A DNA stretch of 29,583 nt from Minisyncoccia bacterium (lineage in GTDB: Bacteria > Patescibacteriota > Minisyncoccia > Phycocordibacterales > UBA2163), in the NCBI GenBank assembly GCA_046757385.1, contig JBHHYD010000001.1:1-29583 (forward strand). Direction: 5' to 3'. This document shows positions 4,928 through 14,776 of this stretch, in pieces. Under the pieces are notes generated by a model that was not told the DNA's origin, did no database searches, and saw only the letters and a list, made by a program, of their open reading frames with translations. Made by a program: the position numbers and the translations under genes. How positions within the stretch are numbered: the first letter of the stretch is position 1; each line of letters starts with the position of its first letter.

Positions 4928-4983
4928 AGCTTAAGCATACCAAAATCCACAAAAACTCTCGTCCTTGACTTTTTAATGATTAT

Positions 4984-5250
4984 ATGGCAGTCTATATATG
5001 GAAAACAAATTCTTTAACTTTGGAAAATGGCAAGACTTATGCATCACAGAGAAATTATGGAGTTTCTTTTTCGGGACTCAAGAATATTAGTCTTAGTAAG
5101 AACAGAAATCAGGTAATCTCACAATTTGGAAAGAGTGAGAAGAATGCCCCAGGTATAATCCTGATAGTTATGTTTTTTGGAATTGGCATTTTTATTATAG
5201 TAAAACCGACAGAAGTAATGGCGCAGTTAGAAACGATGTTTAATGGATGA
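4984..5250 (+). CDS. Possible small membrane protein (hypothetical, start uncertain)
   Basis: 88-aa ORF with one hydrophobic stretch (GIILIVMFFGIGIFIIV), followed by a strong hairpin; no recognisable family. Confidence 0.3.
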   Translation: MAVYIWKTNSLTLENGKTYASQRNYGVSFSGLKNISLSKNRNQVISQFGKSEKNAPGIILIVMFFGIGIFIIVKPTEVMAQLETMFNG

Positions 5251-5269
5251 TATTAGAACAGTGTTTACG

Positions 5270-5318
5270 ACCACATTTTTCGCTTGAAGTTTGAGCGAAA
5301 AATGTGGTTATTTTTTAT
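5270..5318 (+). terminator. Intrinsic terminator
   Basis: 15-bp perfect stem ACCACATTTTTCGCT/AGCGAAAAATGTGGT (5270-5284, 5294-5308) followed by TATTTTTTATT. Confidence 0.8.
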
Positions 5319-5363
5319 TCAACTATACACAATGTAATACACAACAATACATATAATTACTTC

Positions 5364-5396
5364 ATGAACCTATACTTACGATCGGATTTATATGTT
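5364..5396. repeat. Left palindromic site flanking the PaaX/Cas2-like gene
   Basis: ATGAACCTATACTTA-CGATCG-GATTTATATGTT; 27/33 identical to the reverse complement of 5984-6016. Confidence 0.8.
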
Positions 5397-5407
5397 ACGA
5401 TTGAAAT

Positions 5408-5962
5408 ATGCCCAGAGGTCATGGAGAAATACAAAAGAAAATACTAGTAGTTTTACTTGGAGGACTTGCCTTAGGATTATCCAGATCACCAAAGATGTCT
5501 TTCCAAATCATTGGTGCGATGGCAAAGGAATGGAAAGATATAGATGAACGCAAATTAAGGCGCTCAATAAGAGCACTCTATAAAGAAAAACTTCTTGATG
5601 AAATACATAACAGAGATGGTACAACAACACTTGTCTTAAACAAAGAAGGGAAAAAGTTCGCGCTTACCTATAATCTTGAAAATATGAAAATCAAGAAGCA
5701 GTCCAAATGGGACAAGAAATATAGAATTGTAATTTTTGATATCCCTGAACGTTTAAGAAAAGTGCGTGATTCATTGCGTATGCATTTACAGGACTTAGAT
5801 TTTTCTGAGCTTCAGAAATCAGTATTCGTGCATCCATATGAATGCTCAAAAGAAATAGAATACATTGTTGAATTTTATAGAATAAAAAAGCACGTTCGTT
5901 TTATTGTTGCTGATTCAATAGACAATGAGTTGCACATAAAACGAATATTTAAATTAAACTAA
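5408..5962 (+). CDS. Stand-alone winged-helix + Cas2-like (PaaX-type) protein
   Basis: wHTH-like LRRSIRALYKEKLL..HNRDGTTTLVLNKEGKK, then WDKKYRIVIFDIPE..RKVRDSLR..L..LDF..LQKSVFVHPYEC; no cas1 or array in the window. Confidence 0.8.
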   Translation: MPRGHGEIQKKILVVLLGGLALGLSRSPKMSFQIIGAMAKEWKDIDERKLRRSIRALYKEKLLDEIHNRDGTTTLVLNKEGKKFALTYNLENMKIKKQSKWDKKYRIVIFDIPERLRKVRDSLRMHLQDLDFSELQKSVFVHPYECSKEIEYIVEFYRIKKHVRFIVADSIDNELHIKRIFKLN

Positions 5963-5983
5963 ATTAATCTGATTTTAAAATTG

Positions 5984-6016
5984 TACCTATAACTACGATC
6001 GTATTTATAGGTTCAT
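5984..6016. repeat. Right palindromic site flanking the PaaX/Cas2-like gene
   Basis: ACCTATAACTA-CGATCG-TATTTATAGGT (5985-6012) is an 11-6-11 imperfect palindrome, inverted relative to the left site. Confidence 0.8.
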
Positions 6017-6057
6017 ATTATATATTATTGGTAATATTGTTGGGAAAAATTTTTAGT

Positions 6058-6086
6058 TTGAAAAAGGTGCTGAAAACAAGTACAAT
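6058..6086 (+). promoter_or_regulatory. Sigma70-type promoter of murA (leaderless geometry)
   Basis: TTGAAA-17 nt-TACAAT, 6 nt before ATG6093. Confidence 0.7.
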
Positions 6087-13008: not shown

Positions 13009-13908
13009 ATGAAAATAGGATACATAGGACTTGGTAAAATGGGGCTCAATATGGTGGAGCGTTTACTTGAAAGAGATTATGAAATCGTTGCTTTTGCGCG
13101 TAAAGAAGAATCTAGACAGAGAGCTAAAGACCAAGGCGCAGAAACTGTATCTTCAGAGGAAGAGATGGTTAAAGCGCTCGAGCCCCCAAGACTTATATGG
13201 ATTATGGTTCCGTATAAAGCCGTAGATTCTGTAATAGAGGAATTAAAGAAATATCTGGAAGCAGGAGATACAATAATAGATGGTGGTAATTCTCCATATA
13301 AAGAATCAGTAAGAAGAGGAAAAGAATTGAAGGAATTAGGGATTAATTTTCTTGATGTCGGGGTCTCTGGTGGACCTGGGGGAGCTAGAGATGGTGCTGC
13401 GGCGATGATAGGTGGAGAAAAGAAAGTGTATGAAAAGTTCGAACAGCTTTTCAAAGACATATCGGTAGAGGGCGGTTACGGATACATGGGAGATCAGGGC
13501 GCAGGGCATTTTGTAAAAATGGTTCACAATGGCATTGAGTACGGCATGATGCAGGCGATAGGAGAAGGATTTGAGATAATGAAAAAGGCGCCGCTTAATC
13601 TTAATCTCACAAAAATCTCTGAAGTTTACAGAAACGGCACCGTCATATCATCAAGTTTGATTGACTGGATGCACAAGGCATTTGTAGAGGAGGGGGAAGA
13701 CTTAAAGGAGATTTCAGGTGAAGTGTCCCACAGTGGAGAGGGACTCTGGACGGTTGAAGCTGCGAAAGAGTTTGGAGTGCCTGCAAAAATTATAGAAGAG
13801 TCGCTCCAGTTTAGAATTGATTCAAAAGGTAATCCAAGCTATACAGGGCAAGTGGTCTCTGCACTCCGTAATCAGTTTGGTGGACACGAAGTGAAAAAGA
13901 AAAAATAA
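13009..13908 (+). CDS. gnd: 6-phosphogluconate dehydrogenase, decarboxylating (short form)
   Basis: GLGKMG, IDGGNS, DVGVSGG, GAGHFVKMVHNGIEYG, ALRNQFGGH. Confidence 0.95.
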   Translation: MKIGYIGLGKMGLNMVERLLERDYEIVAFARKEESRQRAKDQGAETVSSEEEMVKALEPPRLIWIMVPYKAVDSVIEELKKYLEAGDTIIDGGNSPYKESVRRGKELKELGINFLDVGVSGGPGGARDGAAAMIGGEKKVYEKFEQLFKDISVEGGYGYMGDQGAGHFVKMVHNGIEYGMMQAIGEGFEIMKKAPLNLNLTKISEVYRNGTVISSSLIDWMHKAFVEEGEDLKEISGEVSHSGEGLWTVEAAKEFGVPAKIIEESLQFRIDSKGNPSYTGQVVSALRNQFGGHEVKKKK

Positions 13909-13909
13909 T

Positions 13910-14776
13910 ATGCGTCCTGAGAACTTAAAAACAAAAATATTTTTAGATGGAGGAGATCCGAAGGAGACAAAGGAGATTATAAAGCTTCTCGGTTTTCTTG
14001 ACGGCCAGACGACAAACCCAACACTTGTCTCAAAAAATTCGAAAGCAAAAGAGCGTTTTGAAAAAGGAGACAAGTTTACCGAGAAGCAGATTTTTGATTT
14101 TTACAAAAGTATTGTCGGGGAGTTTTCAGCACTTATACCAGATGGCTCTGTATCTATTGAAGTGTATGCAGATAACAGCACAAGCGCTGATGAGATGTTT
14201 GAACAAGGGAAAGATATGTTCTCATGGATACCAAACGCTCATATTAAATATCCAATCACAAAAGCAGGGCTTGAGGCAGTAGAAAAATCAGTAAAAGAAG
14301 GAATGCGTGTAAATACAACACTCTGCTTTACTCAAGAGCAAGCGGCTGCGGTTTATTCAGCAACCAAAGGAGCGAAAAAAGGAGATGTCTTCGTATCTCC
14401 ATTTGTGGGACGACTTGATGATAGAGAAGAAAACGGCATGGGTCTTATTTCAAATATTATTAAGATGTATAAAGACAGCGATGGTCATAGTGAAGTGCTG
14501 ACTGCAAGTGTCAGGAATATTGACCACTTTCTTTACGCACTGAAACTTGGGAGTGACATAATCACAGCGCCATATGAGATTTTGAAACAGTGGGGAGAGG
14601 GAGGTATGAGAATACCAGATGAGACATGGATTTATCCTGCTGCTGGAGGCTTGAATACAATTGCCTATAAAGAACTTGACCTTAAAAAAGATTGGCGAGA
14701 ATTTGATATCAAACACGAATTAACAGATAAAGGCATTGAGCGATTTGCAAGTGACTGGAACAAATTAATAAAATGA
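13910..14776 (+). CDS. tal: Transaldolase family protein
   Basis: FLDGGD, GQTTNPTL, VSIEV, HIKYP (Schiff-base Lys), VNTTLCF, SPFVGRLDD, LTASVR. Confidence 0.9.
   Translation: MRPENLKTKIFLDGGDPKETKEIIKLLGFLDGQTTNPTLVSKNSKAKERFEKGDKFTEKQIFDFYKSIVGEFSALIPDGSVSIEVYADNSTSADEMFEQGKDMFSWIPNAHIKYPITKAGLEAVEKSVKEGMRVNTTLCFTQEQAAAVYSATKGAKKGDVFVSPFVGRLDDREENGMGLISNIIKMYKDSDGHSEVLTASVRNIDHFLYALKLGSDIITAPYEILKQWGEGGMRIPDETWIYPAAGGLNTIAYKELDLKKDWREFDIKHELTDKGIERFASDWNKLIK

What the first reader, a model, noticed from the sequence alone, without database searches (positions are those of the whole stretch)
5364..6016. wHTH + Cas2-like gene bracketed by two inverted 11-6-11 palindromic sites
Seen: the 184-aa gene keeps Cas2-type motifs (IVIFDIPE, LQKSVF), yet no cas1 or array is nearby. 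It is enclosed by two 33-bp sites, 27/33 identical as inverted repeats, each a palindrome centred on CGATCG (right site ACCTATAACTA-CGATCG-TATTTATAGGT). The cassette sits between a terminator and the murA promoter, so it looks modular. Known: 11-6-11 is the geometry of tyrosine-recombinase sites such as dif, and PaaX-type regulators bind palindromic operators. Inference: either a mobile or invertible one-gene cassette, or operators bound by the protein itself to control its own gene and murA-mreB. If both sites are transcribed, the mRNA ends could also pair.
Basis: partly seen in the sequence, partly recalled or inferred. Interest (0 to 1): 0.8.

Follow-up and report, generated by a model that had tools for sequence, protein, structure and literature searches.

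The report
Mini-PaaX gene bracketed by own palindromes
A small DNA-binding protein of an ultra-small (Patescibacteria) bacterium is encoded between two copies of the 28-bp palindrome it most likely binds. The same layout holds across a very large, apparently undescribed protein family, in which a Cas2-shaped domain seems to read the middle of the site.

Summary
Two 28-bp palindromes (5368-5395, 5985-6012; ACCTATA-NN-TACGATCGTA-NN-TATAGGT) bracket a 184-aa gene (5408-5962). None is expected by chance.

The protein is a "mini-PaaX": a winged helix plus a Cas2-fold domain (AF2 pLDDT 92.5; best fold match E. coli PaaX). It has no ligand domain. The genome has no Cas1.

The 499-kb genome holds 7 copies of this site. 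Three further paralogues have palindromes of their own. In 80 homologous loci, 60/78 share a flanking site (controls 1/78, 0/69), and 71/78 have a C[GT]RY[CA]G centre.

Residue 117 of the Cas2-fold domain tracks base ±4 of the site (K-G 49, R-A 25, 4 exceptions; phylogeny-aware p≈0.016). An 88%-identical orthologue shows this swap on otherwise identical arms.

Upstream sites overlap a -10 box, which points to self-repression. A congeneric genome has one solo palindrome and no gene at the same place, so the unit is gained or lost as a block.

The tyrosine-recombinase (dif-like) reading, control of murA and pairing of mRNA ends are not supported. Active mobility driven by the protein remains possible.

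This scan had already noted the same family on other DNA (313 notes, at least 243 genomes). I found no description of it in the searchable literature.

The parts
4984..5250 (+). 88-aa ORF with no Pfam match. It belongs to the lineage-specific insertion (about 4928-6072) between the divergent genes priA and murA.
   Evidence: ORF list; no Pfam hit. Relatives G003/G006/G002/G008 have priA directly next to murA. Metagenome contigs of related strains skip 4927/4939 to 6072/6073.
5269..5309 (+). Intrinsic terminator-like hairpin followed by a T-run. It ends the upstream ORF and is conserved in G001.
   Evidence: 19-pair stem, ATTTTTTATT tail; aligned with G001.
5368..5395 (.). Site a, the upstream cognate palindrome ACCTATA-CT-TACGATCGGA-TT-TATATGT. 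It is the proposed operator of the gene.
   Evidence: As single-stranded DNA it does not fold better than shuffles (-1.3 kcal/mol, z +0.46).
5393..5401 (+). Putative extended -10 element TGTTACGAT. It overlaps the last 3 nt of site a and lies 6 nt before the ATG, which implies a leaderless or near-leaderless mRNA. This is an inference.
   Evidence: Read from the sequence. The same TATATGTTACGAT is kept in the 88% and 84% orthologues. Family-wide, upstream sites carry a -10-like hexamer (54/87 against 18/87 for downstream sites). The tool's own promoter scan did not call it.
5408..5962 (+). Mini-PaaX gene (184 aa). Winged helix (about residues 7-91) plus a Cas2-fold βαββαβ domain (about 105-180). 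No PaaX C-terminal ligand domain.
   Evidence: Pfam PaaX_M 1.9e-20. AF2 pLDDT 92.5. Foldseek top hit PaaX 8a39, then Cas2 structures. hhalign to E. coli PaaX, probability 92%.
5985..6012 (.). Site b, the downstream cognate palindrome ACCTATA-AC-TACGATCGTA-TT-TATAGGT, starting 23 nt after the stop codon.
   Evidence: It folds weakly as ssDNA (-5.6 kcal/mol, z -2.6).
6058..6086 (+). murA promoter-like site TTGAAA-17-TACAAT. It is not part of the module and is conserved in relatives without the palindromes.

Best explanation
The gene encodes a 'mini-PaaX': a winged-helix DNA-binding domain fused to a Cas2-fold domain, without PaaX's ligand-binding C-terminal domain.

Inferred mechanism. The protein acts as a dimer on duplex DNA and binds the 28-bp dyad-symmetric sites. 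The winged-helix recognition helix reads the outer arms (ACCTATA, ±8-14 from the dyad). The N-terminus of helix α1 of the Cas2-fold domain (R117) reads the conserved core at ±4 (TACGATCGTA).

Site a overlaps the gene's own promoter (extended -10 TGTTACGAT, leaderless ATG), so the protein represses itself. Site b, just after the stop codon, is a second copy without a promoter. Its role is not settled; it could be a second anchor for cooperative binding or looping, or a roadblock or insulator at the 3' end.

The unit palindrome-gene-palindrome is self-contained. Genomes gain and lose it as a block by recombination at or between the two sites, which leaves a solo palindrome. Five further solo copies in this genome lie in lineage-specific intergenic insertions.

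Shown here: the layout, its generality, the covariation, the fold and the empty-site allele. Inferred: dimer binding to duplex DNA, repression, and the role of site b.
For: Generality of the layout:
- All 4 paralogues in this genome have their own palindromes. Three have them on both sides, and each family has 1-7 copies.
- In 80 loci from other Patescibacteria, 60/78 share a segment of score 16 or more between the 250 bp upstream and the 250 bp downstream. Controls gave 1/78 (mismatched pairs) and 0/69 (shifted windows). 71/78 of the shared segments are centred on C[GT]RY[CA]G.

Protein-contact pattern in 124 sites:
- The core ±1-4 is conserved (C at ±3 in about 100%).
- Positions ±5-8 are only weakly symmetric (0.44-0.65).
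- The arms ±9-16 are strongly symmetric (0.74-0.92) but differ between families.

Residue-base covariation:
- Residue 117 against base ±4: K-G 49, R-A 25, 4 exceptions. There are at least 20 switches on the tree. Of 10 phylogenetically independent pairs, 7-8 go the same way and 0 (rarely 1) the other way; sign-test median p 0.016.
- The window has R117 with A at ±4. Its 88% orthologue has K117 with G at ±4 on the same arms and flanks.
- In the 72-80% orthologues the arms change from ACCTATA to CACTTAC together with the N-terminus of the recognition helix (ERKLR to RQSLQ).

Fold: PaaX (8a39) is the top structural match. PaaX is an autorepressor whose reported operator is TGATTC-N27-GAATCA, a long palindrome (PMC9493321).

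Promoter overlap: 54/87 upstream sites carry a -10-like hexamer matching at least 5 of 6 positions (23 perfect TATAAT; commonest offset dyad+14). Only 18/87 downstream sites do, and 1 is perfect.

Duplex rather than hairpin at this locus: site a does not form a hairpin as single-stranded DNA.

Block gain or loss: G001 has the same terminator, one palindrome and the murA promoter, with no gene. Its solo site looks like the left half of site a joined to the right half of site b.

Stable residence: a 12-locus clade keeps the gene and both sites at a fixed syntenic place, argS-dut-nudix-[gene]-tmk, so both sites are maintained.
Against: - There is no binding, repression or dimer data. Everything rests on comparative sequence analysis and a monomer model.
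- Between the upstream and downstream copies of one locus, the arms show 21 compensatory double changes against about 5 expected. This fits base pairing (hairpin or cruciform) or template-switch 'palindrome correction', so a folded-DNA ligand is not excluded.
- The Cas2-type residues (D111 invariant, R120, Q136, S138) are conserved here but lost in E. coli PaaX. A mere dimerisation domain would not need them, so a catalytic or metal-binding role is possible.
- A simple repressor does not need a downstream site, yet that site is conserved family-wide.
- Some solo sites lie where no promoter can be, for example C70:759-790 between two convergent stop codons.
- A 40%-identical protein with a quite different recognition helix has nearly the same site. 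The arm-reading code is therefore not simple.
Confidence: 0.58

Rival explanations
1. Active selfish module. The protein is more than a binder: through its conserved Cas2-type residues it acts as a nuclease or recombination factor that cuts or pairs the palindromes, possibly as extruded or single-stranded hairpins. In this way it moves the gene-plus-site cassette and seeds solo palindromes. This would be analogous to RAYT/REP or IS200/IS605 ends, but with an unrelated fold.
For: - Empty-site allele with a recombinant-looking solo site.
- Orthologues at 70-80% identity sit in unrelated contexts: after ileS, beside TrmB, after a HIT gene.
- Patchy distribution: 4 of 9 congeneric genomes, with 1-7 paralogues per genome.
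- Where the centre is asymmetric, the flanking sites are mostly in direct orientation (30 against 5), as expected after site-specific insertion and as in IS200/IS605 ends.
- The Cas2-type Asp and other residues are conserved, unlike in PaaX.
- Compensatory changes in the arms.
- Solo sites lie in G000-specific insertions next to toxin-antitoxin cassettes.
- Earlier scan notes report arrays and in-frame insertions of such palindromes in other genomes (not checked here).
Against: - Copy numbers are tiny: 1-7 here and a pair plus 0-2 solos in five other genomes.
- A 12-genome clade keeps the unit at one syntenic place, which looks like vertical inheritance.
- Positions ±5-8 are not symmetric, and site a does not fold.
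- There is no HUH/Tyr or other known recombinase motif.
- In the window's own clade the asymmetric centres are inverted (P0152, G006), which would invert rather than excise.
- Metagenome contigs showed no joint at the palindromes, though contigs drop rare forms.
Confidence: 0.22
2. Site b, and the solo sites, are operators through which the protein controls neighbouring genes: murA-mreB here, toxin-antitoxin operons, lepA and rpsS elsewhere. The family would then be ordinary local or global regulators with small regulons.
For: - Solo sites C12:8707 and C26:6621 lie 12-25 bp upstream of promoter-like -35 boxes.
- The G001 solo site sits 77 bp before murA.
- In the syntenic clade the upstream site lies in a divergent promoter region shared with nudix-dut.
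Against: - Site b lies 46 bp upstream of the murA -35. The same murA promoter is conserved in G003, G006, G002 and G008, which have no palindrome and no such gene.
- Several solo sites directly follow a stop codon (C5:14200, C9:1697) or lie between convergent genes (C70:759).
- Family-wide, no neighbouring gene is conserved.
Confidence: 0.12
3. The sites are targets of a host tyrosine recombinase (Xer/dif-like or integrase, 11-6-11 geometry). The cassette would be a pdif-module-like or invertible segment.
For: - The sites are palindromes of about 28 bp with a 6-bp centre.
- Two tyrosine recombinase genes exist in the genome (C11, C62).
- The presence/absence polymorphism has its breakpoints at the sites.
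Against: - Four different palindrome families coexist in one genome, each tied to its own paralogue. A host recombinase would use one arm sequence.
- The centre is the most conserved part and covaries with a residue of the encoded protein. In Xer and Cre sites the arms are conserved and the centre is free.
- No recombinase gene is linked to any of the 80 loci.
Confidence: 0.03
4. RNA-level element. The two palindromes would be hairpins at the 5' and 3' ends of the mRNA, or would pair with each other, to stabilise it or to be cut by a Cas2-like RNase.
For: - Cas2 and VapD relatives have reported RNase activity (my own knowledge).
- Site b lies in the terminator position.
- The two sites are 84% complementary.
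Against: - In most homologues the -10 box lies in or after the upstream site, so that site is not transcribed from the gene's promoter.
- The site-a sequence folds no better than shuffles (DNA parameters).
- There is no Rfam match.
- Positions ±5-8 are not complementary.
Confidence: 0.03

Closest known systems
PaaX, the phenylacetyl-CoA-responsive repressor of the paa operons (E. coli, Pseudomonas; PDB 8a39, 3l09; Pfam PF07848 + PF20803 + PF08223)
   Same: It has the same first two domains, a winged helix plus the Cas2-like middle domain (Foldseek top hit; hhalign probability 92%; PaaX_M 73 bits). PaaX is an autorepressor that binds a long palindrome, TGATTC-N27-GAATCA (PMC9493321).
   Different: The window protein has no C-terminal effector domain and no link to paa genes. 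It scores far below the TIGR02277 cut-off (28 against 265 bits). It keeps Cas2-type residues (FDIPE, R120, Q136, S138) that E. coli PaaX lacks. Its gene is bracketed on both sides by its site. The Cas2-fold domain appears to read DNA rather than only pair the two chains.
Cas2 (CRISPR adaptation protein) and VapD toxins
   Same: The C-terminal domain has the βαββαβ ferredoxin-like fold, with the conserved Asp at the end of β1 and the LQxSVF strand. NCBIfam cas2 scores 23.7 against a cut-off of 24.5. NCBI annotates some members as Cas2.
   Different: The genome has no Cas1 and the window holds no repeat array, only the two sites. The domain is fused to a winged helix, and the gene stands alone between two palindromes.
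REP elements with their RAYT genes (REPtrons), and IS200/IS605 ends
   Same: A gene is flanked by copies of its cognate palindrome, with extra solo copies in intergenic DNA. Several paralogues coexist in one genome, each with its own palindrome family.
   Different: The protein is unrelated and has no HUH/Tyr motif. Copy numbers are 1-7, not hundreds. The flanking copies are mostly direct, not inverted. The symmetry pattern and the non-folding site a point to duplex binding.
dif/pdif modules and other tyrosine-recombinase sites (11-6-11)
   Same: The sites are about 28-bp palindromes that flank small modules, some with toxin-antitoxin genes nearby, and show presence/absence polymorphism.
   Different: The centre is conserved and the arms are variable, specific to each paralogue. 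No recombinase is linked, and the site covaries with the encoded protein.

Membership tests
PaaX family (TIGR02277; PF07848 + PF20803 + PF08223) | Central Cas2-like domain PaaX_M (PF20803) | tested here: met
   73.2 bits against a cut-off of 24; residues 99-172.
PaaX family (TIGR02277; PF07848 + PF20803 + PF08223) | N-terminal winged-helix DNA-binding domain of PaaX type | tested here: met
   There is no Pfam PF07848 hit. However, hhalign aligns residues 44-169 to PaaX 51-172 (probability 92%). The AF2 model has three helices plus a β-hairpin wing, and its top Foldseek hit is PaaX 8a39.
PaaX family (TIGR02277; PF07848 + PF20803 + PF08223) | C-terminal effector (phenylacetyl-CoA) domain PaaX_C, and full-length equivalog score | tested here: not met
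   The protein ends at residue 184 and has no PF08223 hit. TIGR02277 scores 28.2 against a cut-off of 264.55.
PaaX family (TIGR02277; PF07848 + PF20803 + PF08223) | Genomic link to paa catabolic genes | tested here: not met
   The neighbours are priA, an 88-aa ORF, murA and mreB. No neighbour is conserved across 80 loci.
Cas2 (TIGR01573 / PF09827) | Family score above the curated cut-off | tested here: not met
   TIGR01573 scores 23.7 against 24.5, over residues 104-145 only. Some homologues carry a precomputed PF09827 hit.
Cas2 (TIGR01573 / PF09827) | Ferredoxin-like βαββαβ fold with a conserved Asp at the end of β1 | tested here: met
   The AF2 secondary structure runs from E105-110 to H174-180. 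D111 is invariant in 116 sequences. Cas2 structures fill Foldseek ranks 3-21.
Cas2 (TIGR01573 / PF09827) | Association with cas1 and a CRISPR array | tested here: not met
   PF01867 was not found in the 90.7%-complete genome; the same search found it in 7 of the 14 control genomes. The window holds only the two flanking sites, not an array.
Tyrosine-recombinase core sites (dif/lox type) | Conserved recombinase-binding arms around a free, usually asymmetric central spacer, with one arm type per recombinase | tested here: not met
   The centre is the most conserved part (C at ±3 in about 100% of sites). The arms differ between the four families of this one genome.
Tyrosine-recombinase core sites (dif/lox type) | A cognate recombinase encoded in or beside the module | tested here: not met
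   No conserved neighbour in 80 loci. The genome's two PF00589 genes lie on other contigs.
REPtron (RAYT + REP) | Gene flanked by its cognate palindromes, with further dispersed copies | tested here: met
REPtron (RAYT + REP) | HUH/Y1 transposase | tested here: not met
   The fold and Pfam matches are to PaaX_M/Cas2. There is no conserved His-hydrophobic-His motif and no invariant Tyr.
REPtron (RAYT + REP) | High-copy dispersal (tens to hundreds of copies) | tested here: not met
   1-7 copies per family here, and 2-4 in five other genomes.

The most novel reading that the evidence does not exclude
The Cas2 fold is used here as a sequence-reading, and possibly DNA-cutting, module. Mini-PaaX genes would then be selfish gene-plus-site cassettes that insert at, excise from and seed their own palindromes. 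That would be a REP/RAYT-like partnership built on an unrelated protein, and it would also mark the edges of accessory cassettes (toxin-antitoxin and others) in streamlined Patescibacteria genomes.
Probability: 0.2. Interest if true: 0.85.

Novelty: new variant of a known kind. Interest (0 to 1): 0.62.

Why it matters
The family is very large: 6,174 clusters at 50% identity, almost all of about 185 aa. It is annotated inconsistently as 'PaaX regulator', 'Cas2' or 'hypothetical'. I found no paper on it in the searchable library.

If the reading holds, there are three consequences:
- The Cas2-fold domain of PaaX-type proteins has a DNA-reading role, not only a dimerising one.
- There is a simple rule (K117-G, R117-A at ±4) and natural specificity-swap pairs that can be tested directly.
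- Many 'solo Cas2' calls in candidate-phyla genomes are explained.

The bracketed layout, with solo sites and empty-site alleles, also provides markers for tracing gene gain and loss in genomes that cannot be cultured. If the protein proves to be active on its sites, it would be a new kind of mobile or site-specific DNA system.

Tried and rejected
- Reads for excision or inversion. Only Logan contigs were available. They showed strains that lack the whole 4928-6072 insertion, but no joint at the palindromes. Contigs drop rare forms, so this is uninformative about excision.
- Exact-pattern scan of metagenome contigs. It gave 5 contigs. One set is a 40%-identical paralogue bracketed by nearly the same site; none is a transposed copy of this gene.
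- Search for a conserved partner gene (recombinase, toxin, Cas1) around 80 loci: none found.
- PDB search by sequence: only weak MarR and Cas2 fragments. The fold search was needed.
- Rfam: nothing.
- Mutual information between arm bases and protein columns. The result was diffuse and confounded by clades. R48 and S53 of the recognition helix appear (z 6-8), but no clean code emerges.
- Restriction-modification reading of CGATCG/GATC. Rejected because sister families use CTATAG, CGGCCG or CGACCG centres.
- Integron attC analogy. Rejected because both flanking sites are cognate to the encoded protein, and there is no integrase or array.
- The link between solo sites and toxin-antitoxin cassettes (4 of 5 solos; 2 of the genome's 4 PemK genes). 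It may only reflect that spare intergenic DNA in a 499-kb genome exists mainly in recent insertions. I do not treat it as functional evidence.
- Literature: five full-text searches found no description of the family.
Full report
**1. What is in the window**

A 184-aa ORF (5408-5962, +) lies between two 28-bp palindromes centred on CGATCG:
- site a, 5368-5395: ACCTATACTTACGATCGGATTTATATGT
- site b, 5985-6012: ACCTATAACTACGATCGTATTTATAGGT

The two sites match each other 27/32 both as direct and as inverted repeats. A consensus pattern with up to 3 mismatches finds only these two places in 29.6 kb, and no match in 100 shuffles.

Upstream lie an 88-aa ORF and a strong terminator-like hairpin (5269-5309). 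Downstream lie a promoter-like TTGAAA-17-TACAAT (6058-6086) and then murA and mreB.

**2. The protein**

- Pfam gives one hit, PaaX_M ('central Cas2-like domain'), at 73 bits.
- NCBIfam gives PaaX far below its cut-off and cas2 just below (23.7 against 24.5).
- An AlphaFold2 model built on 116 sequences has mean pLDDT 92.5. It shows a three-helix winged helix with a β-hairpin wing (about 7-91) and a βαββαβ domain (about 105-180).
- The best Foldseek match is E. coli PaaX (8a39), then Rv0674 (3kfw), then many Cas2 structures and VapD.
- A profile comparison aligns residues 44-169 with PaaX 51-172. PaaX keeps the WDGKW motif. It lacks the FDIPE, R120 and Q136 residues, which are invariant or nearly so in this family.

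The protein is therefore a 'mini-PaaX': the first two PaaX domains, no effector domain, and more Cas2-like than PaaX itself. No Cas1 was found in the genome.

**3. The genome**

The window lies in a 499-kb, 74-contig, 38.8% GC assembly that is 90.7% complete. Homologous loci carry Patescibacteria/Parcubacteria titles.

The genome holds seven copies of the site: the two flanking copies plus C5:14200, C9:1697, C12:5302, C12:8707 and a weaker one at C26:6621.

It also has three more paralogues at 33-37% identity. Each has a different palindrome of the same build:

| Paralogue | Palindrome | Flanking | Solo copies |
|---|---|---|---|
| C3 | GACCTAT-N5-GCTATAGC-N5-ATAGGTC | both sides | C2:16862, C70:759 |
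| C7 | AATTAAGTTrCGCGGTCGC... | both sides | C17:7034 |
| C9 | TTTCGGCAA...CTATAG...TTGCCGAAA | upstream only | none |

**4. The layout is a family rule**

In 30 loci from relatives, most homologues have a palindrome pair of their own.

In 80 further loci from a scan of one genome per species:
- 60 of 78 share a segment of score 16 or more between the 250 bp before the start and the 250 bp after the stop. Controls gave 1/78 (flanks from different loci) and 0/69 (shifted windows in the same locus).
- 71/78 shared segments have a centre C[GT]RY[CA]G: CGACCG 24, CGATCG 23, CGATAG 11, CTATAG 9, CGGCCG 4.
- Where the centre is asymmetric, the two flanking copies are mostly direct (30 against 5). 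The window's own clade is among the inverted cases.
- No neighbouring gene is conserved.

The family has 6,174 clusters at 50% identity with E up to 1e-3, nearly all 180-200 aa. Sources name members 'PaaX regulator', 'Cas2' or 'hypothetical'.

**5. Anatomy of the site**

I aligned 124 sites on their dyad.
- ±3 is C in about 100% of sites, ±2 is G or T, ±1 is A or G, and ±4 is G or A with 94% symmetry.
- ±5-8 carry little information and are only weakly symmetric (0.44-0.65).
- ±9-16 are strongly symmetric (0.74-0.92, against 0.3-0.46 expected) but differ between families.

In the window's family the corresponding blocks are core TACGA|TCGTA, variable ±6-7, and arms ACCTATA at ±8-14. A conserved centre, a loose spacer and family-specific arms is what a two-fold symmetric protein on duplex DNA would leave. 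It is not what a continuous stem would leave.

Site a as single-stranded DNA folds no better than shuffles (-1.3 kcal/mol, z +0.46). Site b folds weakly (-5.6, z -2.6).

**6. Protein-site covariation**

Earlier notes of this scan gave the lead for this test. I ran it independently.

Across 59 loci, alignment column 117 (window R117, at the N-terminus of helix α1 of the Cas2-fold domain) stands out against base ±4, with z 25.

In 87 loci the counts are K-G 49, R-A 25 and 4 exceptions. Both traits change about 20 times on the tree. Of 10 phylogenetically independent pairs on supported branches, 7-8 go the same way and 0 (rarely 1) the other way. The sign-test median p is 0.016.

The closest relatives give a natural swap:

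| Protein | Identity to window | Motif around 117 | Core | Arms |
|---|---|---|---|---|
| window | 100% | PERLRKVRD (R117) | TACGATCG(T/G)A | ACCTATA |
| P0152 | 88% | PEYLKKVRD (K117) | TGCGATAGCA | same arms, same flanks |
| P0153 | 84% | K117 | TGCGATCGCA | same arms (upstream site) |

In the 72-80% orthologues the arms change from ACCTATA to CACTTAC. At the same time the start of the recognition helix changes from ERKL(R/K)RSI to R(Q/K)SL(Q/N)R(S/A)I.

A general arm code did not emerge. A 40%-identical paralogue with a different recognition helix uses almost the same site.

**7. Promoter overlap**

In 87 loci, 54 upstream sites have a -10-like hexamer matching at least 5 of 6 positions within +8 to +34 of the dyad. 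23 of them are a perfect TATAAT, and the commonest start is dyad+14, inside the right arm. Only 18 downstream sites have such a hexamer, and 1 is perfect.

In the window, the one base by which site a's right arm departs from the palindrome (TATATGT instead of TATAGGT) creates TGTTACGAT (5393-5401). This is an extended -10 element 6 nt before the ATG. The 88% and 84% orthologues keep it. The tool's own promoter scan did not call it, so it remains an inference.

PaaX itself represses its own promoter and binds a long palindrome (PMC9493321).

**8. Gain and loss as a block**

The closest relatives (G003, G006, G002, G008) have priA and murA as direct divergent neighbours about 90 bp apart. Contigs of related strains in public vent and marine metagenomes join 4927/4939 directly to 6072/6073.

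G001 has no homologue of the gene. At the same place it has the same terminator hairpin, a spacer, one palindrome (ACCTATACTTACAATCGTGTTTATAGGT) and then the murA promoter. At the four informative positions this solo site matches site a on the left and site b on the right. That is what recombination between the two sites would leave. Its centre has decayed to CAATCG.

Orthologues at 70-80% identity lie in other contexts: after ileS, beside TrmB, after a HIT gene. Only 4 of 9 congeneric genomes have any family member.

On the other hand, a 12-genome clade keeps the gene and both sites at one syntenic place (argS-dut-nudix-[gene]-tmk). Both sites are therefore maintained over long periods.

**9. 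The solo sites**

- C5:14200 starts 11 nt after the stop of a HicA-like gene. It lies in an 886-bp insertion (small ORF, HicB/UPF0150, HicA) between rplB and rpsS. G001 lacks this insertion and G003 has different content there.
- C9:1697 abuts the stop of a toxin-like gene that follows a ribbon-helix-helix gene.
- C12:8707 lies 73 bp before a Phd/PemK pair.
- C26:6621 lies after a PemK gene and 12 bp before a TTGACA box.
- C12:5302 lies in a G000-specific insertion between murJ and lepA.
- C70:759, of the C3 family, lies between two convergent stop codons.

These positions do not look like a regulon. In a genome whose conserved intergenic gaps are 25-90 bp, they may simply mark where spare DNA exists.

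**10. What keeps the rivals alive**

- Between the upstream and downstream copies of one locus, the arms show 21 compensatory double changes against about 5 expected (95 single changes). Base pairing in a hairpin or cruciform, or template-switch correction of quasi-palindromes, would produce this.
- The Cas2-type residues are conserved, unlike in PaaX.
- The downstream site has no obvious job in a plain repressor model.

I therefore give about 0.58 to 'self-repressing DNA-binding module that is gained and lost as a block'. I give about 0.22 to 'the protein itself drives mobility of the cassette and its palindromes'.

The dif/Xer reading is disfavoured. Four arm types coexist in one genome, the centre is conserved and tracked by the protein, and no recombinase is linked. 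An RNA-level reading is disfavoured.

**11. Prior knowledge**

This scan had already noted the same family on other DNA: 313 notes in at least 243 genomes, with several follow-ups that reached similar conclusions. My layout statistics, symmetry profile and empty-site comparison were done before I read those notes. The residue-117 test was prompted by them and then reproduced on my own data. Five full-text searches found no paper describing this family or layout.

Noticed in passing
G000 contig C5:13342-14390 (locus L011): The rplB-rpsS spacer is an insertion hot spot. In G000 it is 1,049 bp and holds a small ORF, a HicB (UPF0150)/HicA pair, the C1-family palindrome and a second perfect 30-nt palindrome (C5:14228-14257). 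The inserted part is bounded by a 13-bp direct repeat, CTTGCAGGATTTG (13375-13387 and 14261-14273). G001 has 82 bp here, and G003 has 515 bp with different content.
   Followed up: partly
window 5431-5481 (residues 8-24 of the 184-aa protein): The first helix of the protein (IQKKILVVLLGGLALGL) is unusually hydrophobic, with a Kyte-Doolittle 17-mer mean of 1.74. It is similarly hydrophobic in the paralogues, and the model confidence is lowest there (74-85). It may be a buried core or dimer helix, or a membrane anchor.
   Followed up: no
window 4928-6072: The whole block between priA and murA (88-aa ORF, terminator, bracketed gene) is strain-variable. Contigs in two public metagenomes join priA directly to murA with 41-42 other letters between, and G001 carries a different 151-aa ORF before the same terminator.
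   Followed up: partly
G000 C9:1530-1680, C26:6520-6600, C17:6960-7030, C12:5240-5290: Other intergenic hairpin repeats lie next to the solo sites. They include GC-rich elements (…CCCTGCC…GGCAGGC…; 23-24 copies of each heptamer in the genome) and an AAACCGCTAAATT…AATTTAGCGGTTT hairpin.
   Followed up: no
G000 C9:671-1498 (locus L003:478-1302, minus strand): A 275-aa protein combines an ATP-cone, an Mrr-type restriction-endonuclease domain and an AF1548-like C-terminal domain. It lies just downstream of a solo palindrome and a toxin-antitoxin-like pair.
   Followed up: no
loci L052, L059, L062, L063, L073, L078, L082, L086, L088, L091, L093, L100: A clade of Nomurabacteria-like genomes keeps the mini-PaaX gene and both TAGCATTAG…CGACCG…TTAATGCTA sites at one syntenic position, on the strand opposite to argS-dut-nudix and tmk. 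In five of these genomes the two sites are exactly 608 bp apart.
   Followed up: partly
locus L142:1320-1969 (metagenome contig): A 192-aa paralogue only 40% identical to the window protein, with a different recognition helix, is bracketed by almost the same site (A[CT]CTATAATTACGATCGTATCTATAG[GA]T). This points to convergent or modular site specificity.
   Followed up: partly
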